This document shows positions 5,726-38,521 of a DNA stretch of 64,000 nucleotides, piece by piece. This DNA comes from Escherichia coli phage Shin27: the sequence record LC788709.1, one strand, 5' to 3'. The stretch's first letter is position 1. Every line of letters begins with the position of its first letter. Below the pieces are notes generated by a model. It had not been told where the DNA came from, did no database searches, and saw only the letters and a list, made by a program, of their open reading frames with translations. A program made the translations under genes and the position numbers.

Positions 5726-8575
5726 TTAAATAGATGCCCAATCCACAGATTGCTCGCCATTATCACCTTCTGCTCTTATACGGAAGCGTAACTTCCTATT
5801 AATACCTAGAGCATCCTCGTTATGAAGAGCATAGTCTGCCTTATTGTATATCAGTAGATAATCGTAGACATACTGATCTTCAATTCGTACACTTCTTAAT
5901 AAACGATCTAGGTTATCGTAGATTTCGAGAGTGTAGAAGATTCCATCAATAATATCTTCTTCTGGAATTCTATCCCAGGCCAACTTAACGTCTGGTCCTA
6001 CAAACTCCGATGCATCTCCTGAAGCTGTGTTAGTAACCCTGAAATTACTAACGACGCTTAAGTTTTTAGCAGAGTTAAGTTCTACCGATAGTGTTACAGG
6101 AGAACTTCGTCTACCATTAATATCTACAGCTCTAATCTCAAAGACTGCTAAACCAGCAGGTTCTCCAATAATTTCTTGGATCATTCGTAGATTTGGATTA
6201 GTTTCTAGTTGCTGTACTATATAAGGATCAGCATGCCCAGAGTGAACGATGGAGTAATAAACAACGTTATTAGTTAAGCTAGGAAGCCAAGATAGCTCAC
6301 CATTCTTACCAATAGATCCTACTTGTCCACCAGGTGTTGGTGTATACATAAAGTCTCTAGGAGGCAGTACGTTATTACTAACATCAGGAATATCATTACC
6401 ACTATTATCTACCTGTTCAGAGTTAATAAATACATCTTCTCCATACTCTTGTAGAGTAATATTAATCTTGCCTTCTCTTGAGTTCTCAACCTCATCTACT
6501 AGGAAGTATTTCTTATTCCACCCATAACGGTCATAAGTAAACGCTACTGGATCGTTGGGTTCAATACCAATGAAATGGTAAGGTAGAGAGAAAGATAGAG
6601 TTCGAGAGTAACGAGACTTTTTAAGTTCTCTATCAGCAAAACTACGTGCAGTGTAGTAGTTAGTAATGTTTGCAAAGGATAATTGCAGCTTTTTATCTAA
6701 TCCTTTATCCTGCTCTTTAAATATAGAGTTAAAGAATGTAATGGAGTTAGTTTTCCAGCTTAATGCGGGATCTAGTATAGAGGCTTGTACTGAGTTAAAC
6801 TTATTTCTACCAGTAGTATCTGATAGCTCCAGATCACCATAGGTATCTAAGAAGTCAATCTCTAATGGGGTGTTTGAGAACTTCTCAACAGTTATTCTAT
6901 ACTGTCCAGATAAGTTGTTGATAGCACCGCCATAAGACTCTATTAATCCCTGCACGTTTTTAAATACTGACTCAGAGGTATCGAGAATAGTATTCATTTG
7001 AACTATTTGTCTATTCTCTCCTACAGCATCAGTCCATCCAACGTATCTCCAGTAGGGCTGCCAAGAAACCTGATAGGATTCATCAATGATATCCAGGATA
7101 GCTGCTTCTTGAATAAGTTGCTGGAGAGGGAACTGATCAATAGTGATATTAGCACCGTAGCGGTCAGAGGTTAGGTAGTCCAGAGTTTGCCAGATACCAT
7201 TTAAGCTAGTCTTATCAGCAGTTACTCTACCATCTGAATGATAGATCTTAATCTTCTTACCTTGAACTTCAGCGCTAACTTCTGGAATTTCTGTTCTGTT
7301 TTCATTAATAGTAAAGCGAACAATAGCATAAGCAGTATCTAACAGTTTATAACGAGTGTCCCAGTATTCCGGTCCATTCTCATTCATGTTCTGTAGATAG
7401 AAACCTTTCTCTTTTGCAATGTTAACTAGAACATCAGCAGCAGATTGATCAGCCTTACCATGATAAGTCCAGATACGGATATCGCCATTACCATCATTAT
7501 ACTTATATTCCTGTCCATGAACAGAAGGTTCAGAGCTTGGTTGACCAGAAGCAATACGTTGCATGGTATCGCCAGCTACTTTCTTAGTACCAAAGCAAGT
7601 ACGAGACTTACTATCATTAGGATCAATACAGATCATTGGTACATCACCAAAGTAAAAATCTAGGAACCCATCAATCTCACCCTCACAGAAAGCGTATACT
7701 ACATATACGATATTAGGATTATGCAGTTCAGTATCTGCAAATACTGGGACTCCAGGAATTTTCTGAACTCCATATACTACTGGCAGGAATTTAGCAGCTA
7801 AGTTAAAATCAAGATCTACTTCCTTAGTTACAGTCTCATAGTATTTCTTTAGGCTATAGCTTCTAGAAAGACCAAATAACTTTTTCTTAGATTGTAACTT
7901 ATAACGTTCTTCCTGAACCTGATACTTAGCAAGAATAGAAATACTCTTGTTAGCATGAAAGAATCCGTAGTCCTCTTGATATTCAGGTCGTTTAGCACCA
8001 TTAGATGGAACTAATTGGCCAGCAACAATCTCAAGTCCCCTATGGTCAGCATCATCTGTGAAACGTCCGTTTACTCTATCAAAGTCATAGAATTGGTTTG
8101 AACAGTTCCATGTAATAACAGATGTACTAACTCCAGAAGTACCAATGTTATCCTTAATACCACCACCAGTGATTTTACCACGGAAGTAAAGTAAAGGACC
8201 ATTAGTATCTGGATCTACAGGAAGAATGTTACCTTCTTCATCAATAACCGCTTGATGGATTGAAATAGATCTATCTAGGAAGGATACACCATTTTGGACT
8301 AGTTTTAATACTTCATCCTCAGCAGTACCTGTGATAGTAAAAGAAAGGCTACCAATGGAAAGTTTTCTATTTTGTTTATGTGTTGTTATAGACTTAACTT
8401 TACCGGATGTGTAAAGAATACCATTATAAATTACATCCCTAAAATAGTCTGTAAGATAAATGTACGCAGAACTTGATCCGGTAGAGCTTGGCAATTCAAG
8501 AGTAATAAGGCATGCAGTTTTTATTTTATTATTGGTTCTTAGATACTCTCTTGCACTGTCAAGAATTTTCTTCAT
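5726..8575 (-). CDS. baseplate hub protein (pb3-like)
   Basis: 949-aa ORF between the pb9-like and pb4-like genes, with a 4-nt overlap with the upstream gene. Size and order are as in T5. Confidence 0.8.
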   Translation of the reverse strand: MKKILDSAREYLRTNNKIKTACLITLELPSSTGSSSAYIYLTDYFRDVIYNGILYTSGKVKSITTHKQNRKLSIGSLSFTITGTAEDEVLKLVQNGVSFLDRSISIHQAVIDEEGNILPVDPDTNGPLLYFRGKITGGGIKDNIGTSGVSTSVITWNCSNQFYDFDRVNGRFTDDADHRGLEIVAGQLVPSNGAKRPEYQEDYGFFHANKSISILAKYQVQEERYKLQSKKKLFGLSRSYSLKKYYETVTKEVDLDFNLAAKFLPVVYGVQKIPGVPVFADTELHNPNIVYVVYAFCEGEIDGFLDFYFGDVPMICIDPNDSKSRTCFGTKKVAGDTMQRIASGQPSSEPSVHGQEYKYNDGNGDIRIWTYHGKADQSAADVLVNIAKEKGFYLQNMNENGPEYWDTRYKLLDTAYAIVRFTINENRTEIPEVSAEVQGKKIKIYHSDGRVTADKTSLNGIWQTLDYLTSDRYGANITIDQFPLQQLIQEAAILDIIDESYQVSWQPYWRYVGWTDAVGENRQIVQMNTILDTSESVFKNVQGLIESYGGAINNLSGQYRITVEKFSNTPLEIDFLDTYGDLELSDTTGRNKFNSVQASILDPALSWKTNSITFFNSIFKEQDKGLDKKLQLSFANITNYYTARSFADRELKKSRYSRTLSFSLPYHFIGIEPNDPVAFTYDRYGWNKKYFLVDEVENSREGKINITLQEYGEDVFINSEQVDNSGNDIPDVSNNVLPPRDFMYTPTPGGQVGSIGKNGELSWLPSLTNNVVYYSIVHSGHADPYIVQQLETNPNLRMIQEIIGEPAGLAVFEIRAVDINGRRSSPVTLSVELNSAKNLSVVSNFRVTNTASGDASEFVGPDVKLAWDRIPEEDIIDGIFYTLEIYDNLDRLLRSVRIEDQYVYDYLLIYNKADYALHNEDALGINRKLRFRIRAEGDNGEQSVDWASI

Positions 8576-9294: not shown

Positions 9295-12200
9295 TTAAGA
9301 ATTACCAAGTGATTTCAGGGTGGTTCCATTCTCATTAAGAGCCTGTTCTACGGCATCCCTGAAAGCAGCACTGTTGCTCGAAGCAAAGTCTCGGAAGCTA
9401 GCCGCATCCATCGTACTGATGTTCAGCACAATAGGTCTACCCGATGTACCCTTTGAAGATCCTTTGAGTTCATCAGTAGGAGTAGCCTTCATCGGAACCA
9501 TAGGAGTGATTACTTCGGTACCATGTTCACCCATCTGGTAACTAACTCCAGGATACATATTACCACCTTCTGCACGGGGTACGAAAGAGTTAGCATTACC
9601 AATCCCTTGATCTCCTCGAATATAAGAAAGCTCACCTGCGTTAGCCGACATAGAAACGTCTACGTTCTTCTGGCGCTCTCCAAGAGTTAAGTAACCAGCT
9701 GTCTCAGCACCAGAGTCCCCAATAGAAGACATACCAGATGCAGAGGATGCTTGAGCAAGAGCCATAGCACCTGCTAAACCAGCCGCAACCATCAGAGGAA
9801 TAGAGAATGGATACGGAACAGCTGTTGCTGCCTGCATCACCGCTACTGCCGTCTGGATAATGATTTGCTTCTTAGCCGCATCTTGCTGGATCTTGAGCTT
9901 TTCAGCCTCTAACTTCTTGATCTTAGCTTTAGATTGCTCAGATTTACCATCACGTTTCTGTTCTGCTGCAATAGCTGCATCAATAGCACTTACCTGTTGA
10001 CCAACACTATACTGAATCATTGAAGATACAGTTTGCATACCAGCCGCTACTAGAGAAGTGGTATCCAGAGATCCTTGTGAAAACTGGATCATAGCATTAG
10101 TTAGGTTACCCATGCTTTGTGCTACAGCAGTTGCTTCGGAGTTCAGTTCAGACAGCTTAGAAATAGCCTGGTCATAGGATGCCATTCTATTCTGCATATC
10201 CATATTTGCTTTATCATCTCCTTCCAGTCCAGTTGTTGGAGTGTAAACACCACCAACAGAAGAAGTGACTTGCTGCTGCATCTGAGCATCACGTTGCATC
10301 TTAAGCTGTGCTAGAGCTGCCGAAGTTTCTTGGATTTTACGCTTATACTCTTCCTGAGCTTGTGCATTTCCTTTTGTAATTTCCAGTAAACTTTGGTACA
10401 GAGCTTGCTGTTCGGTTAGTCTCTGAGATTCCCCCGTAACGTTTCTGCTAGTCTGTGAAATATTAAGAGCTCTTTCACGTCCAGAAGCCATTTCCCTTTG
10501 CTGATCCTGACGGAATTTCCAGATTTCACGTTCAATTTGTGCCTGAGCTCGTCTTGATTGTTCAGCTTCCTTCTGCTTATCAATCTGCTTGGAGTACCAC
10601 ACATACTTCTCTTTCTCGATAGTCAGTTCAAGGTTCAACTGAGCTAAACGATATTGAGTATCTGTCATAGTACGGTTATTCAGGAGAGCAATTTCACGAT
10701 CAACACCAAGAATCTTATCGGTATAGTCCTTAACCTTCTTCTGAGCTTCCATACCCTGGTTAGTGATCTTGATACGTTCTAGCTGAATCTTAGCTATCTC
10801 ACCTTCGATTGCTTTGTTACCCTTGTTAGTTTCTAGGACACGCTTAAGAGCTGCTTCCTGTTCTTCTAACTGTTGGATTTCCAGACGTCTACCAGCTTCC
10901 TGTGCTTTCTCTTTGTCCTTAGTCTGGCTATACACTTCGGCAATCTTCTGCTGAACTTCTAGCTGATTCTTAGTCTCATTACCAGTTAATTTTACATAAC
11001 CAGCAAGAGCTTGTGAAGCAGTCTTCATCTCACTAAGAGTATTATACCCTAAGTTCAGGCTCTTAACATACTCATCAGCATTTTTACCAGTACCCGCGGA
11101 TAGAGACTCAATAGTCTTAATCGTATCTGATAAGGATGCACTAGTTTTAGCCGCAGTATTAGTATTCTGAGCGATGTTCTGGATATCGTTAGCTAAATCA
11201 CTAGCAGTTTTCTTAGCCTGATCATATGCTTTCTGCTGTTCTGTCAGTCCTTTCAGAGTTGCAGAGTTGAAGTCATAAACCGCATCAGGGTCATTTGCAT
11301 CTTTCTGTAGGTTAATTTGCTTCTGGAATTCTGGATTAGCCTTAGCAGCTGCAGCACCAGCAGCTTGGTATGCCGATTTCCATGCATTAAGATTGCCAGT
11401 TGAATCCTCTACTTCCTTATCAAGACGCTCTACCTGGAGAGCTAATGCAGCAGTATCTGCAATAAATTTCTGGTTTTCTTCAGAAGATCCTATGCGAACT
11501 CCTCCTACTTCAAAACCTCCTGCAGCTAACCCTACCGGTGCACCTTGAGCAACTAAACGAATAGCCCCTGCTGTAGATGCATCTGCTTGCTGCATACGCT
11601 TATCTAGATCAGCTTTTAACTTATTACGCTTTTCTAGAGATTCTTTGTACATATCAAGAGCTTTATTATATCCTTCCTCAGAAGCGGAAAGACTTAAAGC
11701 TACAGCACCAACGTTAGTTGGGTCAATCTGACGGTTAGTTTCTTCCTGTGCTCTAGCAGCAGAGGCCGAGATAGATGCTTGAGAAGTATAGAACACTGCG
11801 TTGATAGAATCAATTACTGGCCCTAAATACTTAGCAGCAGCCTGTTGAACCTTTCTCAGTGCAGCATCAGCATTAGCAGCAAACTGTTCCCAGGGGGTTG
11901 CACGAAGTACATCATCAAGATAGCCGAAACGTTTAGTAGATTCAGCGATAACTGCGTTAGCATATGCTTGTTGCTTCTGGAAAGTAGAGAGACTATTAAC
12001 GTTATATGTAATACCTGTGTTAGCAGCATTTAACTGTTTAACGTAGTCTGCGTAAGCATCGTTAAGACGAATAGTAACACCAAGTTCGTCCAGAAGTTCG
12101 ATTTCTTGTTTAGATACACCCTTGATTACACGGTTAAGTGCATCAGTCATATCAACACCAAGAACAGCAGCAGCACGACGAGCTACTAGACCAAATTTAT

Positions 12201-20111: not shown

Positions 20112-20594
20112 TTAAGCCTCCGGCGCAGGGTTGATAGTTGTTACACACTCATTAGAAGTAATGGAAGTAGATTTACTATCCGTTACAACAACTTTGTAAG
20201 TACCAGCATCTTCTGCAACAGCTGTAGCTTTGTTGAAATTAGGGCCAGTAACACCACTAAGTGGAGAACCGTCTTTAGTCCAAGCATAAGTATATGGTGC
20301 AGTACCACCAGTAACTGTTACGCCCAGATTAATTGCTGCACCAGTATCAACAGCTAGAGTTTTAGCCAAATTCTTCGTGAAAGCTAGAGCCGGAACAACC
20401 GGAGCAGTAACTTCGTATGCTTCTTTGAACTTATTCCAAACCTTGCGGTTGGTATGTGCAGTGGTCATTCCAAACTCTTTACGTAGAGTAGCGTAGTTTG
20501 GAACGAACTTGTGTGCTGCAACCGTAGCAAAGAAGATATGAGATTCTGGCAGCTTTTCACCAAAAATGGCCTTTAGACCATCATAATCAATCAT
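20112..20594 (-). CDS. capsid decoration protein (pb10-like) with Ig-like domain
   Basis: 160-aa ORF. The C-terminus (VTGGTAPYTYAWTKDGSPL...EDAGTYKVVVTD) is an Ig I-set-like signature. Confidence 0.75.
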   Translation of the reverse strand: MIDYDGLKAIFGEKLPESHIFFATVAAHKFVPNYATLRKEFGMTTAHTNRKVWNKFKEAYEVTAPVVPALAFTKNLAKTLAVDTGAAINLGVTVTGGTAPYTYAWTKDGSPLSGVTGPNFNKATAVAEDAGTYKVVVTDSKSTSITSNECVTTINPAPEA

Positions 20595-21808
20595 TCTTTA
20601 TCCCCATCGGCAGTGCCTTGCGGTCTACCACCTTCTTGACCAGATACACCTGTTGCAGAACCAGCAACGTTAGCAGGAATACGAATCTTATTCATCTGCT
20701 CATCATCTAAAGGTTCAAGGTTAAGCTCTTCACGAGCCTCGTTACCAGTCATGATACCGTTATTAACCAAAGAGGTTAAATGTTTAGCCTCAGCTTCTTT
20801 ATCTGGCGTCAGTGCAGCTACTTCCTTAGTATTAGGAGTAACCTTGTAGCCAAAGAAGAAAGTAAGAGAACTAGTCAGCTTGTTCAGCATAGGAATGACA
20901 GTCATGTAATAGAACAATTCGATGTTTGGTCGAATGTTAGCATTATTACCACCATCAAGTAACACTTGCGGAACACCAAAGGCAAGACAGATGGATTTAT
21001 TAAATCCTTCGATATCTTCCTTGAAGTCTAGATCTTTAAAAGAGGATATTTGGGAGTACGGTTTTGCTTTCATACCACCATCTAGAATCAGGACAGTAGA
21101 CTGACCAGTACTAGGATTATAATCGAGTTGTAATTCTTCTTGTTTACGCTCACGCAATTTCTTGTTCAGGATTTCATCCGTCTCAAGAATAAGACCAATC
21201 ACAGTGCCGTTATCGAGGAACTTCTCTTTAAAGTTAAGCATTTTAGAACGCTTCTCAAGAGAGTCAATAACTGTAGCAACACGAGATTGTCCAGAAATTT
21301 GGGAGTTTGTGCCACACACGTAACTGTTATCCTTTATAAAGATAATCTCATCTACGCGATAGTCTATCTGGTTATTAAATATGAATTTTTTGATAAACTT
21401 ATTGGCATCTGCCTCTACTTGCATTAGTGCAGCAGGGACATGGTAAAGTGCTGTGCCATCCCAATAGATGTATGCACAACCCTCAAAAAGTAGGTCAGTG
21501 ACTACAAGTCTACGGAATGTGCTTATATCCATGAATGGATTAGGTCGTACATTTAAGAGAGTGTCTAGAGTCTTTGCCTTGACGCCATTAGCGTACGTGA
21601 CAATATTATATTTATCTCCGACAGTATAAGAACACTCCGCCGCACTATCGATAACCATGTTAGCAGTTCGGTTGAGAATCTCAATCTTACTGTAGGCTTG
21701 TCCAGTGGTAAATGGCTTACGGTTAGTGCGATGACTAACTGGTTCCATGTCTCTTATAATACGTTGACCCGGATTTAGCTTTTCAGTAATCCAGCTTTTT
21801 AAACCCAT
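20591..21808 (-). CDS. portal protein (pb7-like)
   Basis: 405-aa ORF between the terminase side and the protease/decoration genes. Size and position are typical. Confidence 0.85.
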   Translation of the reverse strand: MGLKSWITEKLNPGQRIIRDMEPVSHRTNRKPFTTGQAYSKIEILNRTANMVIDSAAECSYTVGDKYNIVTYANGVKAKTLDTLLNVRPNPFMDISTFRRLVVTDLLFEGCAYIYWDGTALYHVPAALMQVEADANKFIKKFIFNNQIDYRVDEIIFIKDNSYVCGTNSQISGQSRVATVIDSLEKRSKMLNFKEKFLDNGTVIGLILETDEILNKKLRERKQEELQLDYNPSTGQSTVLILDGGMKAKPYSQISSFKDLDFKEDIEGFNKSICLAFGVPQVLLDGGNNANIRPNIELFYYMTVIPMLNKLTSSLTFFFGYKVTPNTKEVAALTPDKEAEAKHLTSLVNNGIMTGNEAREELNLEPLDDEQMNKIRIPANVAGSATGVSGQEGGRPQGTADGDKE

Positions 21809-29041: not shown

Positions 29042-30706
29042 TTATGCAAAGAATTTACCGTTTTTGAAATCAATCAAAGTACGTTGCCCGTTTGCATAGG
29101 TAATTAAATGCGTTTGCGTCCAGCTTGACGCGCCCACGTTGTAGCCCATATCAAGGGAACCAGCAACGCCAGCGGTATAAACGCCGCCGTAAATGCTAGC
29201 CGTGTGAGTGTGACCAGTGTTAAGGCGTCCCAACTTTTTAAACTGCTTAGGATTGCCCCGACTGCCGTTAATGCCATTGTGACCATGTACGCCGCATTCA
29301 ATGCCAGCGATTTTAAAGGACTGGTCAGTAGTCAAAAAAATGGCGTTAAATTCGCATCCTGCAACGTTTCTAAGCGCATAATCTAACACGTTAAAGGTAT
29401 CATCCTTTTCAGCAATAGCGGCGTAAATCGCAGCGTTTAGACGGTGATACAGTTCCGCGTTTGCGGGATCATCTTTAATGTTTGCGTTACGATCATCTAA
29501 CCAGCGGGATAATGCTAAATCATGGTTAGATTCCACAATGATTGTTTGACTAAAATCACGTTCCATAGATTCTAATACGCGTCCAGTATCGATAAGATCA
29601 TCAATAACTTTATCACGTCCGGCGGCGTATTGTTTCGCAAGGAATACACCACTAGCGCGGTTATGATGGTTACGCGATGTAAAATCATGCACGTCATGAA
29701 TAAATTGATATTTCGGTTTAAGAATATCAAGCAAGCTGTTTTCACTAGCCCATGAAGCGACGGCGCAATCATCATCTAATTTTTCGGCGTGAATATCGCC
29801 ATATTGCAAGCCTAGAACATGATCGGACGTTTCAAAACATCCGGTAGGCATAGCGCAAACATTCAAATCATAGAACATTCCGCTTTCATCCATTGTTTCA
29901 ATCTGGCGAGCATAAAATTCGCCGTCGTCGTCGAACTCTACCAGCAAAGCGCCATAATTATGTAAAGCCTCAGCTTTTTGACCTGCTTTCTGCTGAATGT
30001 AGTTTTTAAGCGTAGCCGTTCCGGTTGAATACATACGGCACACTACTTCACCTTTTAACGCTGGCACACTTTCAGCGGTAATTTTAGCGTGACCAATTGC
30101 CAGACCTTCAATATTTAAAGCCGTGGCGGTTTCTGCGAATCCTGAAAGCGGGTAATCTGCCGTTGGTAAAACGTTAATTTCAGCCATGAAAGCAAAGCGG
30201 CGGTTATTTAAAAATACGTTTTTATCACAAACATATTTATCAAATGCGGGATCGTATTTAATACCGTTTGCCCCTTCCCCGTTCTGAAATCCGTTTTTGT
30301 TGTAAATGAATTTGCTAACAAGTAATTCAGCGCCGCAATATTCAGCGAATTTTTCCAGACTTGCTAAAAAGTTTTTATGCGGGAAAGTATTATTTTGAAT
30401 CGACGTTAGAATAAAACGGCGACCGGACTTAACTTCCCATTGCTCAACGGTGCTAGAAACAATTCCCGCCGCCTCTGGGCGATCATCGTTTTTAATCGCC
30501 TTTTCGGCTTTTGCCGCTTTCGGTTTCGCTGGTTTATTTGCTTCCAGCCAGTCACAAATTGCGGTCGAATGTTTCGGCGTACCATAAACAGCTTTTGAAA
30601 TATCGTCGCAAACTTCCAATTTAGTAGCGCGTAAACGCTTACCGTAGAAGTTAAAATCTGCGGCCATTTTCAAAATTTGAGCTTGTTTTTCTGCGGAAAT
30701 ATTCAT
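29042..30706 (-). CDS. A1: pre-early protein A1 (metallophosphoesterase/Mre11-like fold)
   Basis: 554-aa ORF with calcineurin-like motifs in order: GDIHAE, IHDVHD, ESNHD, GVHGHNG, GHTHT. Size and position match T5 A1. Confidence 0.85.
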   Translation of the reverse strand: MNISAEKQAQILKMAADFNFYGKRLRATKLEVCDDISKAVYGTPKHSTAICDWLEANKPAKPKAAKAEKAIKNDDRPEAAGIVSSTVEQWEVKSGRRFILTSIQNNTFPHKNFLASLEKFAEYCGAELLVSKFIYNKNGFQNGEGANGIKYDPAFDKYVCDKNVFLNNRRFAFMAEINVLPTADYPLSGFAETATALNIEGLAIGHAKITAESVPALKGEVVCRMYSTGTATLKNYIQQKAGQKAEALHNYGALLVEFDDDGEFYARQIETMDESGMFYDLNVCAMPTGCFETSDHVLGLQYGDIHAEKLDDDCAVASWASENSLLDILKPKYQFIHDVHDFTSRNHHNRASGVFLAKQYAAGRDKVIDDLIDTGRVLESMERDFSQTIIVESNHDLALSRWLDDRNANIKDDPANAELYHRLNAAIYAAIAEKDDTFNVLDYALRNVAGCEFNAIFLTTDQSFKIAGIECGVHGHNGINGSRGNPKQFKKLGRLNTGHTHTASIYGGVYTAGVAGSLDMGYNVGASSWTQTHLITYANGQRTLIDFKNGKFFA

Positions 30707-31100: not shown

Positions 31101-31517
31101 TTATTCACCTGCGGCCTGTTTTACTTCCTCCGCTACGCCTAACAATTGCGCTACGGCGTCCAGCGTTTCCAGTTTAGCACTTTCAAGGCTTGCCAGATCG
31201 TCGGCATCTTTTACGATACCTGAATCAATGGCGTGTTTAGCGATGACGCGCACATAGTGAGCTTTACGAATTGAGCTACCGCCGCCAACTTTGCGAGGTT
31301 TATCGCTTTTCTGATAGGCTTTTGCGCTTGTCAGTTTAGAACGTACAGACACCGGACTAGCAGCACCAACGGCGGCGGCAATTTCTTTCAGGCCGTCACT
31401 GTTAGCAAATTCACTTCCGCTTTTAGCGACCATTTCAGAATACATAGAAACAGCTTTTTCGGTGTTTTCTTCGTTCCAAGAGAATTTTGCGGTTTTTTCG
31501 GTTTTAACGTTAGACAT
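31101..31517 (-). CDS. A2: pre-early protein A2-like (probable DNA-binding)
   Basis: 138-aa ORF immediately upstream of A1 in the transcription direction. Assignment rests on recalled T5 order and size only. Confidence 0.6.
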   Translation of the reverse strand: MSNVKTEKTAKFSWNEENTEKAVSMYSEMVAKSGSEFANSDGLKEIAAAVGAASPVSVRSKLTSAKAYQKSDKPRKVGGGSSIRKAHYVRVIAKHAIDSGIVKDADDLASLESAKLETLDAVAQLLGVAEEVKQAAGE

Positions 31518-32840: not shown

Positions 32841-32867
32841 TTAGAATGCGTTACAGAGCGTTTTAGA
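32841..32867 (+). repeat. 27-bp perfect direct repeat, copy 1
   Basis: TTAGAATGCGTTACAGAGCGTTTTAGA is also present at 37084-37110. Confidence 0.85.
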
Positions 32868-33246
32868 CCCTGTTAATAACTTATACAAAAAGCAAAAATG
32901 AAATTTAATGAGTTATCCACTTGATTTTTCAAAAAAGTATTTTCTGCTGTTATTTTTCATTGACAAATAAGTTTAGACGTGCATTTATTGGTTAGCAGAC
33001 TAATAATCGCTAGGAGGATAATCACGCTGGTGGATTGTAACAGCCGAAACAGTTAGCGGACTATTAATACTTTAAAAACCTATTAGCCAACTAACTATTT
33101 CATAATATATAATATACACATAAATTAATGAGAAATAATAACTATGAGAAACTATCGGGCTAAGTGAGAACCACTATCATTTAGGTTATGCACAAAGCTA
33201 TCCACAGCACAAAATAACTTGACGCAATAGGCGACGTTTTGGCGAC

Positions 33247-33255
33247 TTATCCACA
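33247..33255 (+). promoter_or_regulatory. DnaA box (perfect TTATCCACA)
   Basis: Exact 9-mer. Near-matches are CTATCCACA at 33198-33206 and TTATCCACT at 32913-32921. Confidence 0.6.
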
Positions 33256-33275
33256 GACTTATATACAGGTTATCC

Positions 33276-33295
33276 TACTGTATAAATATACAGGG
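33276..33295. promoter_or_regulatory. LexA (SOS) box-like palindrome
   Basis: TACTGTATAAATATACAGGG has the CTGT-N8-ACAG core and is AT-rich, adjacent to DnaA boxes. Confidence 0.55.
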
Positions 33296-33543
33296 TAGAA
33301 TGGTAGCAGTAACAACCGCAATCAAATTTAAGCGGCCTAGAACGCGCTACACGGCGTTTTCTCACTGCTACCCTTATTATAATAAAGCCTTGTGTACGCT
33401 TACAGAGAGCTAGAAATAGAAAACGCGCGATTATCATAAAAACGGGCAGTAGGCAAGGAATAAAAAACCTTTTCTTTTTTTCTTGCCCCTAGCGAACAAT
33501 TATCTATATCATTCACTCACCGATTAACGAGGGAGACAAAGAA

Positions 33544-34545
33544 ATGTCTACTGTAAGAATTGCAGTACCAGCAAACGCAACTATTATTAAAGGTAGTTTG
33601 CGCAACCTGCTAGATGGTAGTAGTGCGGCAAGTATTCAGCACACCGCCGCAATGGTTGAAAAAATTCACGAGGATATTTTAGATAATAATGATACTCATT
33701 ATTCAGTCGATGATTTCACGCTATTACTAGACCAGACAAGGGCGCTAGTAATTTTCAACCGTGATTATCACATTTTCCGTAATAGTCAGGGAACTGATAT
33801 TGATTTTATCATTGTTGGTTATAGTGAGTCTCATAGTGGTTACATTGCGCGATTATATAACGTGCAAGAAAAAGAGCAGGTAACAGCAACAAAAGTAAAT
33901 AATATCAGATTGGATAGTGTCGGATCGTTATTAAATAGTATCTGGCGTGAATTATCATCCAGTTATAAAGGTGCTGATAGTGACGCAATCGAAACAACTG
34001 GCGTATTGTGCTTTGAACGCGCTAGCGGTAACATGTTGATCCCTAACGATTATTTAGAGTATGGGAATGAATCAAACGTTGCAAACGCTGGATTTACACT
34101 TTTACCGCTTGACAATGTAGCAAAACAGGCTGTAAACTCTCAAACTTCAAGCGCAAATGCGCAAACTACTGAAAATAAAGGAAATATTATGTCTAAAGTA
34201 TCTTCTATCGTTGCCGCTAATAAATCCGCCGTTGTTAACGCTGCTAAACTGGAAGCGGGTAAAATTGCACTGACTCAAATCACAAAAGTAGCGGCGAAAA
34301 AAGCGCCGTTTATGATTAAAGGTTATATCGATACGCCGATCGGTCGCGTAGTGATCGCTAACCTGTTAAGCGTAGCGGTTGACCAGTACGCCCCGACTAA
34401 TGCGAAAGCGAAAGCGGTAGCAGGCGCGGCAATGGAAGCGGCAATGCTGGAAATGGTACAGAGTTTCAATATTGCGGAAATGATCGATGAAATGGTAAAA
34501 GGTATTGACATTTCTACTTTTACCACTAACACCGAAAGTGAGTAG
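33544..34545 (+). CDS. hypothetical pre-early protein (largest gene of plus-strand cassette)
   Basis: 333-aa ORF with a GAGGGAG SD 8 nt upstream. The C-terminal third is an Ala/Lys-rich amphipathic region. A hairpin follows the stop. Confidence 0.65.
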   Translation: MSTVRIAVPANATIIKGSLRNLLDGSSAASIQHTAAMVEKIHEDILDNNDTHYSVDDFTLLLDQTRALVIFNRDYHIFRNSQGTDIDFIIVGYSESHSGYIARLYNVQEKEQVTATKVNNIRLDSVGSLLNSIWRELSSSYKGADSDAIETTGVLCFERASGNMLIPNDYLEYGNESNVANAGFTLLPLDNVAKQAVNSQTSSANAQTTENKGNIMSKVSSIVAANKSAVVNAAKLEAGKIALTQITKVAAKKAPFMIKGYIDTPIGRVVIANLLSVAVDQYAPTNAKAKAVAGAAMEAAMLEMVQSFNIAEMIDEMVKGIDISTFTTNTESE

Positions 34546-34612
34546 TAATAACTAGCGGGGATTATTTCCCCGCGTTACTATTTCCCTGTTAATTGTTAGG
34601 AGACTACTTATT

Positions 34613-34921
34613 ATGCAACTGAATCAAATCATGTTGACGCAATTAGCCGAAAAAATGCCGAATAGCCCCCATGTTAATTATTCGGACGATCAAAGCAATA
34701 TTCCTATATGGGAAAAACAAGGCCGTCCCTTTTTATGGGAACATGTAGAAAGCGCGAATAATTATCATGCTTTCTTTGATCGTGGTTATGGCTGGCTATG
34801 TATTTTTGTAGACGAAACTTTGCTGGATTATGGAATGGATGAAATAGTCCGTGATGACGTAATTTTCTTAAATAAAGGATTTTACAGTGTAGCAAATTCT
34901 CTTTATTTCCCTGCTAATTAA
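34613..34921 (+). CDS. hypothetical protein
   Basis: 102-aa ORF with a TAGGAG SD. Confidence 0.55.
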   Translation: MQLNQIMLTQLAEKMPNSPHVNYSDDQSNIPIWEKQGRPFLWEHVESANNYHAFFDRGYGWLCIFVDETLLDYGMDEIVRDDVIFLNKGFYSVANSLYFPAN

Positions 34922-34934
34922 TAGGAGGCTAGTT

Positions 34935-35429
34935 ATGTCAGAAGAAAAATATGGCTTTTCACTAGAAAGTGTGAATGAAGCTAAACACGATATGATAGTT
35001 TTAGTTGATTGTCATACTGGCTATTGCGGGGAAGGCTGGACGGAGGAACATTTTGTTCCCGCTGGCTGTGATCTGGACGCTTTCGCAAACGAACACGCAT
35101 ATGATAATGCTTCTCGTTTCGGTAGTGATGGGGAAGAAGATGAAGAAACAGGGGAATGGATTGAAAATGATAATGTTTATGCGAGTATTTATCATTATCA
35201 ATTGAGTAAATCCGGTATTTATGTAAATGGCGGCGATCCTATTAATACCGTTATGAAACTAATTATTAAACACGGTGGCGCGGAAATAATTGGTAACAAG
35301 GCGTTATTATATGCAAATCGATTAAAACAGCTTGTTTATATTCCTGATAATTCCCGTTGGGATGAATATGCCGTTTTACAGAAAGAACTAAAACGCTGTT
35401 TCGGTGTGGAAGCATTAGAAATAGTCTAA
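34935..35429 (+). CDS. hypothetical acidic protein
   Basis: 164-aa ORF with a TAGGAGG SD and an acidic tract (GSDGEEDEETGEWIENDN). A terminator follows. Confidence 0.6.
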   Translation: MSEEKYGFSLESVNEAKHDMIVLVDCHTGYCGEGWTEEHFVPAGCDLDAFANEHAYDNASRFGSDGEEDEETGEWIENDNVYASIYHYQLSKSGIYVNGGDPINTVMKLIIKHGGAEIIGNKALLYANRLKQLVYIPDNSRWDEYAVLQKELKRCFGVEALEIV

Positions 35430-35443
35430 TGTAAAGTTTTGTA

Positions 35444-35472
35444 AAGGTCGCCTATTATGGCGACCTTTTTTG
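35444..35472 (+). terminator. Rho-independent terminator
   Basis: AAGGTCGCC-TATTAT-GGCGACCTT followed by TTTTGTT. Confidence 0.75.
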
Positions 35473-35479
35473 TTATAAT
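35471..35479 (+). promoter_or_regulatory. possible extended -10 promoter
   Basis: TGTTATAAT lies immediately after the terminator at 35444-35472. No good -35 is present. Confidence 0.3.
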
Positions 35480-35536
35480 GCCTTTACACCGAAACGGTGG
35501 GTTGAAAATTTTCCCTGATTTCTAGGAGGCGTTAAA

Positions 35537-35764
35537 ATGGTACATTCATCATCTTCTGCAATTTTTAACGGTATGGAATGGGTATCCGTTCCCGCTATTG
35601 TCAGCGTTATGGTTTCTGAGTTCGGCATAGGTAAAACTTATGTTACCATTCAGGGGCTTTACGACAATGACAAGATTGACCAGCAAACCGCCGGATTTTT
35701 GCTGGATGAATTGAAAGCTAACCATTGCACTAAAAAGCAAGCGGCAAAAATTGTTTTAATGTAA
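35537..35764 (+). CDS. hypothetical protein
   Basis: 75-aa ORF with a TAGGAGG SD. Confidence 0.5.
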   Translation: MVHSSSSAIFNGMEWVSVPAIVSVMVSEFGIGKTYVTIQGLYDNDKIDQQTAGFLLDELKANHCTKKQAAKIVLM

Positions 35765-35810
35765 TTAATAAAGGGGGTATATTATCCCCTAATTTCTAGG
35801 AGCTAATAAA

Positions 35811-35960
35811 ATGGTTATTTTTCGATCTATTCTAGCTAGTATCTTGGGCGCTATTTTATCACTGTTTGTAATAGCTTTCGGCGTTAACGTGGTTATTATT
35901 GGAGCAGGTATCGCTGGGTTTTCTTACTTGTTAGGCTGTATGACTGGTAAAGGGGAATAA
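35811..35960 (+). CDS. small double-pass membrane protein (49 aa)
   Basis: MVIFRSILASILGAILSLFVIAFGVNVVIIGAGIAGFSYLLGC... with a TAGGAG SD. It is below the ORF-track cutoff. Confidence 0.4.
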   Translation: MVIFRSILASILGAILSLFVIAFGVNVVIIGAGIAGFSYLLGCMTGKGE

Positions 35961-35962
35961 AA

Positions 35963-36175
35963 ATGTTAAAGAATGTTTCCCTTGCCCGTTCTAAAGGTTT
36001 TAAGCTGGTGGATGTTAACACGTTCGAGCGTCCAGATTGTAAAATCGAATATGTAGCACGCAACAAAAACGCTTTCCGTGTTACTGAAAAGAAATTTGAC
36101 AAGCGCGGAAATTTGGTAGCCGAAACGGTTAAACACTTTGCTACTTTTTACGCTGCGTTTCGTGGGGTATTATGA
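35963..36175 (+). CDS. hypothetical basic protein
   Basis: 70-aa ORF that starts 2 nt after the preceding stop. Confidence 0.5.
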   Translation: MLKNVSLARSKGFKLVDVNTFERPDCKIEYVARNKNAFRVTEKKFDKRGNLVAETVKHFATFYAAFRGVL

Positions 36176-36273
36176 GATCCTTATATATTGCTCTAGCGTT
36201 TGCTACCGTTGGCGTTGTTTGCTCATTCGCTGCATTTGTTCTAAAAATGTACCTGATATTTTCCCAGCTTTAG
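36172..36273 (+). CDS. small membrane peptide (33 aa)
   Basis: MRSLYIALAFATVGVVCSFAAFVL... It has an ATGA start/stop overlap with the upstream ORF. Confidence 0.3.
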   Translation: MRSLYIALAFATVGVVCSFAAFVLKMYLIFSQL

Positions 36274-36284
36274 GAGCTTGACAA

Positions 36285-36632
36285 ATGGTTATTTATGAGG
36301 GTAATCGCTTTGTTACTAATTGCCGTCCGGCATTATTAGCAAACTATTTAAATCAGCTTTCCCCTGTTTATAAAGGCGTGGTTAACATCTATGAAGGCAA
36401 AGCGCACTATAGAATTAATGCCGTTGTCGCTCGCGAGCTTGCCTTTCAGTTTCTTACTTTTAACTCATGCGATATTCAGGTTATGGGTGAGTCTTTGATT
36501 GCAGAAAATGAAGATGAATTTATTAACATTTTCCGCAAAGTATGTACAGAGCGCCTGATTATGAAAGGCGCATATATTCAATCAACCGCTGATAGTATTG
36601 AAACAGCGTTTCGAAAAATTGTAAATGAATAG
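36285..36632 (+). CDS. hypothetical protein
   Basis: 115-aa ORF with a TAGGAG SD. Confidence 0.55.
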   Translation: MVIYEGNRFVTNCRPALLANYLNQLSPVYKGVVNIYEGKAHYRINAVVARELAFQFLTFNSCDIQVMGESLIAENEDEFINIFRKVCTERLIMKGAYIQSTADSIETAFRKIVNE

Positions 36633-36755
36633 CTGGTGGCGTAAAACGCAATCCCATAAATCTAATAATACCGCTGGGAAACATTCCCAGCGTTTACGAT
36701 TTGGGAACGGCTTCACAATGTTAATAATAATCATTCTCATTCTAGGAGCAATGGC

Positions 36756-36995
36756 ATGGCTGTAAGAATTTTACGATATGTAGAACGTAAAGAAACCGAT
36801 ATTATGCAGCATCATTTAACTGATGGGCAATACGCGCAATTTTTAGAAATGCAGAAAAGCGGAGCTAGTACGGCGGCGCTAGGGGCGTGGATCAATTCAG
36901 TTTCAACGTGTACGCATTTTGATTCATACGGGTATACGCCAGCCGAAACCGTCCAGATCTTTGACGACTACGAGAAGGAATACATAGCAGACTAA
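36756..36995 (+). CDS. hypothetical protein (last gene of cassette)
   Basis: 79-aa ORF with a TAGGAG SD. An AATCATTCTCATT operator-like half-site lies at 36729-36741 and a terminator at 37001-37031. Confidence 0.5.
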   Translation: MAVRILRYVERKETDIMQHHLTDGQYAQFLEMQKSGASTAALGAWINSVSTCTHFDSYGYTPAETVQIFDDYEKEYIAD

Positions 36996-37000
36996 TAATA

Positions 37001-37031
37001 GCGGGGCGCAACTATCGGCCCCGCCTTTTCT
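37001..37031 (+). terminator. Rho-independent terminator at the end of the plus-strand cassette
   Basis: GCGGGGC-N10-GCCCCGC followed by CTTTTCT. Confidence 0.65.
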
Positions 37032-37083
37032 GCCTGCAAACAAATTTCCCCTTATTAAAATACCTCCTCCAAAAATAAACGCG

Positions 37084-37110
37084 TTAGAATGCGTTACAGA
37101 GCGTTTTAGA
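37084..37110 (+). repeat. 27-bp perfect direct repeat, copy 2
   Basis: Identical to 32841-32867. It lies 31 nt upstream of the near-consensus LexA box. Confidence 0.85.
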
Positions 37111-37140
37111 GCTATATTAGAGTTATTCACTACGTAGGAA

Positions 37141-37160
37141 TACTGTATATTTATACAGTA
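37141..37160. promoter_or_regulatory. LexA (SOS) box, near-consensus
   Basis: TACTGTATATTTATACAGTA differs at one position from the E. coli consensus TACTGTATATATATACAGTA. Confidence 0.65.
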
Positions 37161-37168
37161 GAATAACC

Positions 37169-37177
37169 TGTGGATAA
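37169..37177 (-). promoter_or_regulatory. DnaA box (perfect, reverse orientation)
   Basis: The plus strand reads TGTGGATAA. An 8/9 box, AGTGGATAA, lies at 37181-37189. Confidence 0.6.
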
Positions 37178-37241
37178 GTCAGTGGATAACGCCTCAAAAT
37201 CGCTAGGATTTTGTCAAGTCAAATCGTGCTGTTAATAAACC

Positions 37242-37250
37242 TGTGGATAA
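37242..37250 (-). promoter_or_regulatory. DnaA box (perfect, reverse orientation)
   Basis: The plus strand reads TGTGGATAA. Confidence 0.6.
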
Positions 37251-37283
37251 CTTAAATAGCAGTGTTTCTCACTTCGCTTTCTA

Positions 37284-37413
37284 AATGCGAATCATTCTCA
37301 TTATGCGACTCATTCGTATTCAATTCTGTAAATGATAATCATTCCCATTCCACTTTCTAAATGCGAGTAGTTCTCATTCGCATTCAACTTCTCAAATGCG
37401 AATCAATCTCATT
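37284..37413. repeat. five copies of a 19-bp imperfect palindrome (AATGCGAAT-N-ATTCTCATT family)
   Basis: Copies lie at 37284-37302, 37303-37320 (degenerate), 37331-37349, 37360-37378 and 37395-37413. A lone half-site lies at 36729-36741. Confidence 0.75.
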
Positions 37414-37432
37414 ATCAGTTGCATTTCGGCAG

Positions 37433-37463
37433 GCAGGGCATTTTCTATTTGCCCTGCGCTTTT
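37433..37463 (+). terminator. terminator-like hairpin inside the repeat region
   Basis: GCAGGGC-N11-GCCCTGC followed by GCTTTT. Confidence 0.4.
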
Positions 37464-38065
37464 GTGCAAATCCGACATCTGCCCCCACGGATTACGTGCC
37501 AGCGTGCATGTGCGAATCCGACAATTTTTGGTAGTGTGCAAATCCGATGGGAAATATTTTTTATATGTGCGAATCCGACAATGAATTTTCCTAAAAACTC
37601 CAGCAATCCGCAACTGCGATGCAATCCAGCTGGATTTACTAGAGTATGCGCAAATCCGACATGAGTTTATTTGTGCAAAACCGACAAGATTTTTGTGACT
37701 TCGATGAGAGGGTGTGTGATTGTGAGGGTTTGGGGAGAAGTGCGAATCCGATGAGATTTTGGGAGGAACTACGGAAGGAGCAGCGGTGATGGTGCTTTAG
37801 CACCGGTTTGCTGCATTTTTGAGGATAATGCGGGATGTTTTGGCTAGAATTGAGATTAGGGGAGATAAAGCGAAATTTTATTAGCAAAATGGGGCAAAAT
37901 CGCTTGACAAGTGAAAATTCCTGTGGCTCTAAAAAACTCAGGCAAATATGGGCCTTCGGCCCGAAATAATGCTGCTATTTTCAGTGTTCCTAAAAACTTT
38001 GGAGACTCCTATCAATGTGCAAATCCGACCATAAATTTCTAGAAACACAGTGTGCAAATCCGATA
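37464..38065 (+). repeat. iteron-like array: nine same-orientation copies of GTGC(A/G)AATCCGA(C/T)N
   Basis: Copies start at 37464, 37510, 37536, 37567, 37648 (variant), 37673 (variant), 37740, 38017 and 38052. Spacing is irregular and no ORF is supported. Confidence 0.85.
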
Positions 38066-38492: not shown

Positions 38493-38521
38493 ATTATAAC
38501 ATGCAGAAATCATAACGTCAA
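38493..38521 (-). promoter_or_regulatory. sigma70-type promoter reading into ORF-free hairpin-rich DNA
   Basis: Coding strand reads TTGACG, 17 nt, TATAAT, just downstream of the stop of the 296-aa gene. Confidence 0.5.

What the first reader, a model, noticed from the sequence alone, without database searches (positions are those of the whole stretch)
37141..37160. Near-consensus SOS (LexA) box in a strictly lytic phage
Seen: TACTGTATATTTATACAGTA differs from the E. coli consensus TACTGTATATATATACAGTA at one position. A second, weaker box lies at 33276-33295. Neither overlaps an obvious strong promoter that I could call. Established: CTGT-N8-ACAG boxes of this quality are high-affinity LexA operators. 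Inference: this could give SOS-responsive control of a pre-early transcript, a LexA sink, or a structural protein-DNA block near the injection stop. I do not recall LexA boxes being described for T5-like phages.
Basis: partly seen in the sequence, partly recalled or inferred. Interest (0 to 1): 0.6.

Follow-up and report, generated by a model that had tools for sequence, protein, structure and literature searches.

The report
Conserved LexA box at T5 injection-stop
A 20-bp palindrome annotated in phage T5 only as "palindrome D" is a near-perfect binding site for the host SOS repressor LexA, kept beside DnaA boxes at the injection-stop region across the T5 phage family, which suggests that host DNA-binding proteins take part in this virus's unexplained two-step DNA entry.

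Summary
TACTGTATATTTATACAGTA (37141-37160) and TACTGTATAAATATACAGGG (33276-33295) score 25.9 and 22.4 bits on an E. coli LexA matrix. That is at or above the best genuine E. coli boxes, with about 8e-4 such sites expected in 64 kb.

The window is an Epseptimavirus (T5-like). The two boxes are the inner ends of the known 131-135 nt inverted repeat pair IRC-spacer-IRD / IRD'-spacer-IRC'. Box 2 is T5's annotated "palindrome D", at the start of the injection-stop repeat region.

Both boxes recur in every T5-like locus that covered the region. They also recur in Klebsiella, Pantoea, Proteus, Aeromonas and Vibrio Demerecviridae, whose A1 proteins are only 31-74% identical. Each sits 6-9 bp from a tandem pair of DnaA boxes. 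CTGTAT/ATACAG is fixed and the centre is free.

Neither box overlaps a promoter. The left copy is probably dispensable in T5. No paper I could search mentions LexA here.

Best reading: a real LexA operator used architecturally, together with DnaA, rather than as a promoter switch. LexA binding and any role in infection are untested. The main rival is that the palindrome belongs to the phage's dimeric A2 protein. The element is known; the LexA reading seems new and is testable.

The parts
37141..37160 (.). Box 2: TACTGTATATTTATACAGTA, the LexA-type palindrome. It is homologous to T5 'palindrome D' (AY587007 9330-9349) and forms the inner end of IRD'.
   Evidence: 25.9 bits. Conserved in all T5-like loci examined.
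33276..33295 (.). Box 1: TACTGTATAAATATACAGGG, the weaker copy. It is the inner end of IRD and homologous to T5 6135-6154.
   Evidence: 22.4 bits. Degraded in some relatives (CCTTGTAT..., 16.7 bits).
33159..33293 (.). Left arm of the inverted repeat (IRC-spacer-IRD, T5 Repeat Region 2).
   Evidence: I1, 135 nt, 75% complementary. Davison 2020 bioRxiv 10.1101/866236.
37143..37277 (.). Right arm of the inverted repeat (IRD'-spacer-IRC', the start of T5 Repeat Region 3, the candidate injection stop signal).
37169..37189 (-). Tandem DnaA boxes 8 bp from box 2: TTATCCACA (37169-37177) and TTATCCACT (37181-37189), 3 bp apart.
   Evidence: The same arrangement is seen in all lineages.
37230..37250 (-). 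Second DnaA pair of the right arm: TTATTAACA (37230-37238) and TTATCCACA (37242-37250).
33247..33267 (+). Tandem DnaA boxes 8 bp from box 1: TTATCCACA (33247-33255) and TTATATACA (33259-33267).
33186..33206 (+). Outer DnaA pair of the left arm: TTATGCACA (33186-33194) and CTATCCACA (33198-33206).
33544..36995 (+). Variable pre-early gene cassette bracketed by the two boxes. Its first gene is DUF7566 (333 aa). It ends at a terminator hairpin at 37003-37027.
   Evidence: The cassette is inverted in the Sugarlandvirus lineage.
37253..37413 (.). Fur-box-like direct repeats (aaatgcgaatcattctcatt type) immediately outside the right arm. They sit where T5 has its DRC repeats and palindromes E-I (AY587007 9468-9637).
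   Evidence: (D2, D3).
37452..37459 (+). CCCTGCGC, matching the motif at the T5 major 7.9% nick (T5 9661-9668), near the calculated first-step-transfer shear point (T5 9618). It lies about 290 bp beyond box 2.
37462..38032 (+). Seven copies of the 18-nt repeat ATGTGCGAATCCGACAAT (T5 DRD family).
   Evidence: D1, D4. Related cores occur in Klebsiella, Vibrio and Proteus relatives.

Best explanation
The palindrome is a genuine, high-affinity operator for the host LexA repressor. The Demerecviridae family has kept it as one part of a fixed composite module: LexA box, 6-9 bp, DnaA box, about 3 bp, DnaA box. One copy of the module sits at each inner end of the inverted repeats that bracket the pre-early accessory cassette. 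The better copy directly abuts the injection-stop repeats, about 290 bp inside the 7.9% nick motif.

Proposed mechanism (inferred, not shown): LexA dimers already present in the cell, together with DnaA, occupy the module as soon as the first-step-transfer (FST) DNA enters, and no phage protein synthesis is needed for this. The resulting nucleoprotein complex acts architecturally rather than as a promoter switch. It would mark or hold the inner end of the FST DNA and insulate the stop region from transcription leaving the cassette. It could later be remodelled when the phage proteins A1 and A2 restart transfer.

Shown here: the sequence identity to LexA operators, the deep conservation, the fixed geometry with DnaA boxes, and the non-promoter context. 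Not shown: LexA occupancy, and any effect on infection.
For: 1) Box 2 scores 25.9 bits and box 1 scores 22.4 bits, at or above the best E. coli boxes in the matrix; chance expectation is <=8e-4 per window.
2) T5 carries the same pair: TACTGTATAAATATACAGTA, annotated only as 'palindrome D', and CACTGTATAAATATACAGGG in IR-D.
3) Of 40 IMG/VR loci retrieved through the A2 protein, and so not selected on the box, all but the one that stops short of the region carry both boxes at the same two places.
4) Klebsiella Spivey, Pantoea AAS21, Proteus Stubb, Aeromonas AhSzw-1 and two Vibrio phages have A1 only 31-74% identical to the window's. They still carry boxes of 16.5-25.9 bits, at least one >=18.9 bits in each phage, and nearly all lie 6-9 bp from DnaA-type boxes.
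5) Across lineages CTGTAT/ATACAG is invariant while the central positions vary (ATTT, AAAT, GGAT, ATCC). This is the LexA half-site pattern.
6) Most variants seen (CTGG, ATCCAG, GTACAG...CAGTG) also occur in real E. coli boxes from the recalled list.
7) The other conserved motif in the module is the consensus site of a second host protein, DnaA (perfect TTATCCACA three times in the arms; Davison 2020).
8) The phage encodes nothing LexA-like that could explain the shared specificity. tblastn with E. coli LexA gives a best E of 0.5 over 26 aa, nine pre-early ORFs have no such Pfam domain, and the A2 model has no significant PDB match.
9) The FST stop is reported to need no phage protein synthesis (my own knowledge, not checked here). 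Pre-existing host proteins would therefore be plausible components.
Against: 1) No LexA binding data exist for this site.
2) No sigma-70-like promoter overlaps either box: searches find none, the best inward-facing candidate is 8 of 12, and T5's annotated promoters P3 and P4 lie about 200 nt away. The classical LexA mode of action is therefore not evident.
3) Proteins bound on DNA already inside the cell do not obviously stop further entry.
4) The left copy is probably dispensable. The viable T5 mutant lacking hegG to 017 should have lost it, assuming a contiguous deletion; that mutant makes small plaques. Davison's 'Type 4' phages lack IRC/IRD entirely.
5) To my knowledge T5 plates on recA strains, so LexA cleavage cannot be essential for second-step transfer.
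6) Positions 6-9 and 12-15 carry 1.6-2.0 bits in the phage boxes against 0.7-0.9 in the E. coli regulon. This could mean selection for maximal LexA affinity, or a different ligand that reads CTGTATA.
7) The DRD repeats, which have no known host ligand, are also partly conserved in distant relatives. Conservation alone therefore does not identify a host ligand.
Confidence: 0.5

Rival explanations
1. The palindrome is the cognate site of a phage protein, and its likeness to the LexA box is incidental or a case of mimicry or competition. The natural candidate is A2: the essential, family-wide, dimeric pre-early DNA-binding protein needed for second-step transfer. Binding of A2 at palindrome D, with A1, would restart DNA transfer.
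For: A2 and the palindrome are both present in every Demerecviridae lineage examined. A2 is described as a DNA-binding protein essential for second-step transfer with an unknown mechanism (10.64898/2026.04.02.716235). From memory, it is a dimer, which suits a palindromic site. The phage boxes are constrained at TATA positions where LexA is tolerant. CTGT also recurs in the adjacent CTGTGGATAA repeats, so one protein could read both.
Against: A site evolved for an unrelated protein has no reason to match the LexA consensus at 19 of 20 positions, including the flanking TA (P about 1e-8 to 1e-10 per position). The neighbouring repeats match the DnaA consensus at the same time. A2 is only about 41% identical in the Vibrio and Proteus phages, yet the half-sites are unchanged. 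The A2 model (pLDDT 83.6) has no significant structural match; the LexA-DNA complex 3jso appears only at rank 28 with E=5.5. A2's sequence specificity is unknown.
Confidence: 0.25
2. The boxes are classical SOS operators of weak or unconventional promoters that read inward from each repeat arm. They would make part of the pre-early cassette, or an antisense RNA, responsive to DNA damage and to DnaA.
For: Box 1 lies upstream of the cassette, in the divergent control region. The module's geometry resembles the Pantoea sulA promoter found in the genome scan: a DnaA 9-mer in the spacer and the LexA box over a TACTGT -10. The symmetric placement would keep one box upstream of the cassette in either orientation.
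Against: No promoter-like site overlaps either box. The best inward candidates are 7-8 of 12 matches. The three experimentally characterised FST promoters of T5 lie elsewhere: two overlap hdi and one is upstream of gene 011, where AY587007 annotates a putative promoter (T5P4, 6331-6420) about 180-200 nt from the box. Box 2, the better conserved copy, lies downstream of the cassette terminator.
Confidence: 0.12
3. The palindrome matters as DNA, not as a protein site. It would be a recombination or inversion junction of the inverted repeats, or a hairpin or cruciform that affects packaging, nicking or passage through the tail.
For: The boxes are exactly the inner ends of the inverted repeat. The segment between them is inverted in the Sugarlandvirus lineage. 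The central AA/TT pair flips orientation among close relatives, as expected from palindrome-templated switching or arm-to-arm conversion.
Against: The hairpin is weak: -4.9 kcal/mol as ssDNA with 8 AT-rich pairs for box 2, and for box 1 it is not distinguishable from shuffles. Structure alone would not preserve the particular bases CTGTAT/ATACAG across genera; compensatory changes would be expected and none are seen. Homologous inversion needs only the 130-nt arms, not this sequence.
Confidence: 0.1
4. The match is a chance AT-rich palindrome with no function.
For: The core CTGT-N8-ACAG alone is not enriched.
Against: The full-length scores have an expectation of <=8e-4 per window. The element is conserved in position and sequence across at least seven genus-level lineages.
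Confidence: 0.01

Closest known systems
T5 'palindrome D' / inverted repeat D' in Repeat Region 3, the injection-stop region (GenBank AY587007 features; Heusterspreute 1987; Wang 2005; Davison 2015 and 2020)
   Same: It is the same element by homology and position: T5 9330-9349 TACTGTATAAATATACAGTA, with its partner in IR-D at 6135-6154. The DnaA box pairs, the Fur-like repeats and the DRD repeats follow in the same order, with a spacer of about 52 bp between IRD' and IRC'.
   Different: The literature I could read treats it only as a palindrome or inverted-repeat end. Davison 2020 discusses DnaA, IHF and FIS, and suggests palindromes as possible A1 restriction sites, but contains no mention of LexA or SOS. 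Davison 2015, Wang 2005 and Heusterspreute 1987 were not available to check.
Chromosomal SOS boxes of Gammaproteobacteria (for example recA, sulA, umuDC, dinD)
   Same: Same 20-bp motif, TACTGTATAT-ATATACAGTA. The score is at the top of the genuine range. The tolerated variants are the same ones.
   Different: Chromosomal boxes overlap or closely follow a promoter and repress it; these do not. The phage boxes are closer to consensus and more uniformly constrained than the regulon average.
LexA operators on mobile elements (colicin operons, CTXphi, coliphage 186 tum, integron intI, Bacillus phage GIL01)
   Same: A mobile element carrying a host LexA site. Perfect boxes of this class are common on 30-50 kb viral contigs.
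   Different: Those known cases are temperate or plasmid elements that use LexA to switch a promoter (my own knowledge). Here the carrier is an obligately virulent phage that destroys the host chromosome, and the site is non-promoter and paired with DnaA boxes.
DnaA-box clusters acting as protein landing pads (oriC, datA) and Davison's membrane-DnaA model of the T5 injection stop
   Same: Clustered consensus sites for a pre-existing host DNA-binding protein at a fixed helical register. They are proposed to build a nucleoprotein complex on the entering DNA.
   Different: No replication role is expected here. A LexA site as an integral, equally conserved member of the cluster has not been part of that model.

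Membership tests
Gammaproteobacterial LexA operator (SOS box) | CTGT-N8-ACAG palindrome with an AT-rich spacer and a consensus-like 20-mer | tested here: met
   19 of 20 and 17 of 20 matches to the consensus. Scores are 25.9 and 22.4 bits against 12.8-23.8 for 26 E. coli boxes. The matrix was built from sites recalled from memory.
Gammaproteobacterial LexA operator (SOS box) | Occurrence beyond chance, and evolutionary retention | tested here: met
   Expectation is <=8e-4 per 64 kb. [quoted passage not shown]
Gammaproteobacterial LexA operator (SOS box) | Overlaps or directly follows a promoter that it represses | tested here: not met
   Consensus scans find no promoter at either box. The best inward candidate is 8 of 12. 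T5's annotated promoters lie about 200 nt away. This is a sequence-based test only; no transcript data were available.
Gammaproteobacterial LexA operator (SOS box) | LexA binds the site in vitro or in vivo | not testable with these tools
   Needs EMSA, footprinting or ChIP.
Gammaproteobacterial LexA operator (SOS box) | RecA/LexA-dependent change in expression or function | not testable with these tools
   Needs infection of lexA(Def), lexA(Ind-) and recA hosts.
T5 injection-stop Repeat Region 3 (IRD'-spacer-IRC' module) | Homologous sequence at the syntenic position: after the pre-early cassette and before the DRC/DRE and DRD repeats and the 7.9% nick motif | tested here: met
   The window at 37141-38032 parallels T5 9330-10409 element by element. 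GenBank record S114 labels the region 'similar to DNA injection stop signal'.
T5 injection-stop Repeat Region 3 (IRD'-spacer-IRC' module) | A partner inverted repeat (IRC-spacer-IRD) a few kb to the left, and eight DnaA or DnaA* boxes in pairs 3 bp apart | tested here: met
   Inverted repeat I1. Boxes at 33186, 33198, 33247, 33259, 37169, 37181, 37230 and 37242.
T5 injection-stop Repeat Region 3 (IRD'-spacer-IRC' module) | Acts in cis to halt DNA transfer at about 8% of the genome | not testable with these tools
   This has never been mapped to single elements, even in T5.
Binding site of phage protein A2 | A2 has a fold or specificity compatible with this palindrome | tested here: inconclusive
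   The AF2 model (pLDDT 83.6, all-helical) has no PDB match with E<0.9. Binding specificity was not testable.

The most novel reading that the evidence does not exclude
T5-like phages use the host's own pre-existing LexA, together with DnaA, bound to a conserved composite operator at the end of the first-step-transfer DNA. This would be the long-sought host component of the injection stop or hold, or a checkpoint that couples second-step transfer to the state of host DNA. A2 would then act by displacing or remodelling this complex. If so, a virulent phage has co-opted the SOS repressor as an architectural DNA-entry factor rather than as a transcriptional switch.
Probability: 0.15. Interest if true: 0.85.

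Novelty: new variant of a known kind. Interest (0 to 1): 0.6.

Why it matters
How T5 stops DNA entry at 8% of its genome and later restarts has been open since the 1960s. The cis-acting signal has never been resolved to individual elements, and no host factor has been identified.

Palindrome D turns out to be a consensus SOS box, conserved from coliphages to Vibrio and Aeromonas phages in a fixed register with DnaA boxes. This names a second concrete host candidate and gives simple tests: LexA EMSA or ChIP, palD point mutants made with the T5 engineering tools now available, and FST/SST kinetics in lexA(Def), lexA(Ind-) and recA hosts.

It would also be a rare case of a strictly virulent phage keeping a LexA site, and of a LexA site used away from a promoter. 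If LexA does not bind or does not matter, the result still sharpens the search, because it defines the exact bases under selection (ACTGTAT-N6-ATACAGT).

Tried and rejected
1) Literature lead: phage protein JSS1_004 is reported by ChIP-seq at the recA and lexA promoters (PMC12345140). On reading, it is a kinase plus shutoff-domain early protein (an architecture I recognise as T7 gp0.7-like), and its peaks lie mainly at tRNA, rRNA and ribosomal-protein genes. It is irrelevant to T5-like phages.

2) A2 as a LexA-like binder: the AF2 model has pLDDT 83.6, but Foldseek against PDB gives nothing with E<0.9. Inconclusive.

3) A phage-encoded LexA homologue: tblastn of E. coli LexA against the window gives only noise. 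Pfam on nine pre-early ORFs finds only DUFs. Only this 64-kb window was searched, not the whole genome.

4) A promoter overlapping the boxes, including sulA-style geometry with TACTGT as the -10: none is convincing. A search of the T5 left end for the P_N25 sequence as I recalled it found nothing.

5) Hairpin or cruciform: weak.

6) A host counterpart of the LexA-plus-DnaA composite: 5 hits in 596 Gb against about 1.4 expected. One is a T5-like contig, two are the sulA promoter of Pantoea and a related symbiont, and two look random. No general host analogue exists.

7) The argument that only host-type motifs survive deep divergence: weakened, because DRD-type repeat cores are also partly conserved.

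8) Prior-art check in Davison 2015 (PMC4743489): not held. Wang 2005 and Heusterspreute 1987 were also unavailable, so an earlier mention of LexA cannot be fully excluded.

9) Testing hosts with a different LexA motif: not possible, because all the Demerecviridae hosts seen here are Gammaproteobacteria, which as far as I know share the E. coli-type LexA box.

Full report
**What is there.** The two sequences are exactly as reported: TACTGTATATTTATACAGTA at 37141-37160 and TACTGTATAAATATACAGGG at 33276-33295. The core CTGT-N8-ACAG alone is not remarkable (2 found, 0.82 expected). The full 20-mers are. I built a symmetrised position weight matrix from 26 E. coli LexA boxes recalled from memory (Lewis 1994 / Fernandez de Henestrosa 2000 lists). 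On it the sites score 25.9 and 22.4 bits. The training sites span 12.8-23.8 bits, and the third-best site in the window scores 15.8. About 8e-4 sites at >=22.4 bits are expected in 64 kb, and none of 200 simulated windows exceeded 20.4 bits.

**Genome and context.** The window is a T5-like phage of the Epseptimavirus group. It is about 94% identical to Salmonella phage S126 and the EPS7 relatives, and its A1 protein is 100% identical to that of E. coli phage Wa28. A1 is at 29042-30706 (-) and A2 at 31101-31517 (-).

The two boxes are not independent. They are the inner ends of a 135-nt inverted repeat, 33159-33293 and 37143-37277. That repeat brackets a rightward cassette of poorly conserved pre-early genes (33544-36995).

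This is the repeat pair IRC-spacer-IRD / IRD'-spacer-IRC' described for T5. The right-hand copy opens "Repeat Region 3", the candidate injection stop signal (Davison 2020, bioRxiv 10.1101/866236). In the T5 record AY587007 the homologue of box 2 is annotated as "palindrome D", 9330-9349, sequence TACTGTATAAATATACAGTA. The homologue of box 1 lies in inverted repeat D, 6135-6154, sequence CACTGTATAAATATACAGGG.

To the right of box 2 the window follows T5 element by element:
- two pairs of DnaA boxes
- Fur-box-like direct repeats (37253-37413)
- the CCCTGCGC motif of the 7.9% nick (37452)
- seven copies of the DRD repeat (37462-38032)

**Conservation.** I retrieved 40 IMG/VR loci through the A2 protein, so they were not selected on the box. 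Every locus with sequence over the region has both boxes at the same two places. The stop-proximal copy is almost always a perfect TACTGTATAWWTATACAGTA. The other copy is CCCTGTAT...-type and is sometimes degraded.

Distant Demerecviridae, found through A1 at 31-74% identity, also carry the boxes:

| Phage | Box scores (bits) |
|---|---|
| Klebsiella Spivey | 25.9, 25.9 |
| Pantoea AAS21 | 23.7, 25.2 |
| Proteus Stubb | 24.4, 18.8 |
| Aeromonas AhSzw-1 | 18.9, 18.9 (an inverted pair) |
| Vibrio 70E37.1 | 21.7, 18.9, 22.4 |
| Vibrio Cody | 24.4, 16.5 |

Nearly all of these boxes lie 6-9 bp from DnaA-type boxes. In an anchored profile of 71 unique copies the box is the most conserved segment, followed by the DnaA side. 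The cassette-side flank is variable. Across lineages CTGTAT and ATACAG are invariant and the central positions vary. That is the pattern expected for a dimer that reads two half-sites, as LexA does.

**Is it a transcriptional operator?** Probably not in the classical sense. Consensus scans find no sigma-70-like promoter over either box. The best inward-facing candidates reach only 7-8 of 12 matches. T5's annotated pre-early promoters P3 and P4 lie about 200 nt to either side of the left box. Box 2 lies 114 nt downstream of the cassette's terminator hairpin (37003-37027).

**Who binds it?**

For LexA:
- The match covers 19 of 20 positions, including the flanking TA.
- The neighbouring repeats match the consensus of a second host protein, DnaA, at the same time.
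- The half-sites are unchanged in phages whose A2 is only about 41% identical.
- The phage encodes nothing LexA-like in this window.
- To my knowledge the first-step stop needs no phage protein synthesis, which favours pre-existing host proteins.

For a phage ligand, most naturally A2:
- A2 is the essential DNA-binding protein required for second-step transfer (10.64898/2026.04.02.716235), and from memory it is a dimer.
- The phage boxes are constrained at positions 6-9 and 12-15 (1.6-2.0 bits) where the E. coli regulon is relaxed (0.7-0.9 bits).
- CTGT recurs in the adjacent CTGTGGATAA repeats.
- DRD-type repeats with no known host ligand are also partly conserved in distant relatives, so conservation alone does not decide the question.

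The A2 structure model (pLDDT 83.6) has no significant PDB match, which neither supports nor excludes A2.

A structure-only explanation is weak. The hairpin is worth only -4.9 kcal/mol, and no compensatory changes are seen.

**Constraints on function.**
- The left copy is probably dispensable. A viable, small-plaque T5 mutant lacks hegG through 017, a span that should include Repeat Region 2 if the deletion is contiguous as the text implies.
- Davison's "Type 4" phages lack IRC and IRD.
- The stop-proximal copy has never been removed, as far as I could find.
- To my knowledge T5 grows on recA strains, so LexA cleavage cannot be an essential trigger for second-step transfer.
- T5 degrades host DNA early, so titrating LexA to change host gene expression makes little sense.

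What remains is an architectural role for a LexA-DnaA complex at the inner end of the first-step DNA. It could hold the DNA, insulate the stop region from cassette transcription, or give A1 and A2 a substrate to remodel. I put about 0.9 on LexA binding this DNA in vitro and about 0.5 on that binding mattering to the phage. I put about 0.15 on a direct role in the injection stop or restart.

**Known or new?** The palindrome, the inverted repeats and the DnaA boxes are published. Full-text searches for LexA together with T5, T5-like phages or the injection stop signal returned nothing relevant. Davison 2020, the most detailed analysis of this region, never mentions LexA or SOS. Davison 2015, Wang 2005 and Heusterspreute 1987 could not be read, so prior mention is not fully excluded.

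Perfect boxes of this class are common on 30-50 kb viral contigs, as expected for temperate phages. The composite of a LexA box with a DnaA box at this spacing is essentially confined to T5-like phages: a scan of 596 Gb of bacterial genomes gave five hits. One was a T5-like contig, and two were the sulA promoter of Pantoea and a related symbiont.

**Verdict.** The feature is real and strongly conserved, and it is already annotated under another name. Its identity with the LexA operator appears to be a new and useful reading. That reading turns part of an old question into simple experiments. The mechanism remains inferred.

Noticed in passing
window 33296-37140; L044 (Klebsiella phage Spivey) 6023-9492; L040: The whole gene cassette between the two palindrome-bearing repeat arms is inverted in the Sugarlandvirus lineage. 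The DUF7566 gene is on the same strand as A1/A2 in Spivey and L040, but on the opposite strand in the window, T5, Pantoea AAS21 and Proteus Stubb. The inner flank 'atattagagt(t)att' moves with the cassette, and the DnaA boxes stay on the outside. The inverted repeat has therefore mediated at least one inversion.
   Followed up: partly
window 37253-37413, 36720, 35163, 33685, 27373, 27568; T5 L043 9574-9640: Fur-box-like sequences (consensus GATAATGATAATCATTATC) are enriched. There are 7 sites with >=15 of 19 matches against 0.44 expected, all within the first-step-transfer DNA (27.3-37.4 kb). The direct repeats just outside box 2 are of this type. Similar repeats sit on the stop side of the box in Klebsiella, Pantoea, Proteus and Aeromonas relatives but not in the two Vibrio phages. 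Some hits lie in coding sequence, and the repeat hexamer is GAGAAT rather than GATAAT, so Fur binding is uncertain.
   Followed up: partly
window 38493-38521 (- strand): A strong sigma-70-like promoter (TTGACG, 17 nt, TATAAT with an upstream TG; 11 of 12 matches). It points leftward into the non-coding DRD repeats and the injection-stop region, with no obvious gene downstream.
   Followed up: no
boxes in L003-L043: The two central bases of the palindrome are almost always AA or TT, and almost never the AT of the LexA consensus. Their orientation flips between close relatives, mainly in the perfectly symmetric stop-proximal copy. This suggests palindrome-templated switching or gene conversion between the two arms.
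   Followed up: partly
window 32841-32867, 37084-37110 (identical), 33337-33363 (70%): A 27-nt direct repeat, TTAGAATGCGTTACAGAGCGTTTTAGA, lies on the cassette side of each box and once more upstream. Related 'ctagaacg / ttagaatc' motifs precede the box in the Proteus, Vibrio and Klebsiella relatives. Its function is unknown.
   Followed up: no
window 21688-21707: The third-best LexA-like site, TACTGTAGGCTTGTCCAGTG (15.8 bits), lies inside a 405-aa ORF (20591-21808, -). It is conserved in relatives, probably because it is coding. It is within the score range of weak genuine boxes, with about 0.14 such sites expected per window.
   Followed up: partly
window 37452 and 51226: The motif CCCTGCGC, which matches the T5 major 7.9% nick site, occurs twice in the window. 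The second copy may mark another of the T5-type single-strand nicks.
   Followed up: no
L054 94-127 (Pantoea sp. B65); L051 5637-5670 (Ca. Malihini olakiniferum): In these two Enterobacterales a perfect DnaA 9-mer (TTATCCACA) lies 7 nt from the LexA box, in what appears to be the sulA promoter. In L051 the flanking genes are ompA, a sulA remnant and sxy; L054 was assigned by sequence similarity. This hints at joint DnaA and LexA control of sulA in some species. From memory, E. coli's own sulA promoter does not have the DnaA consensus there.
   Followed up: partly
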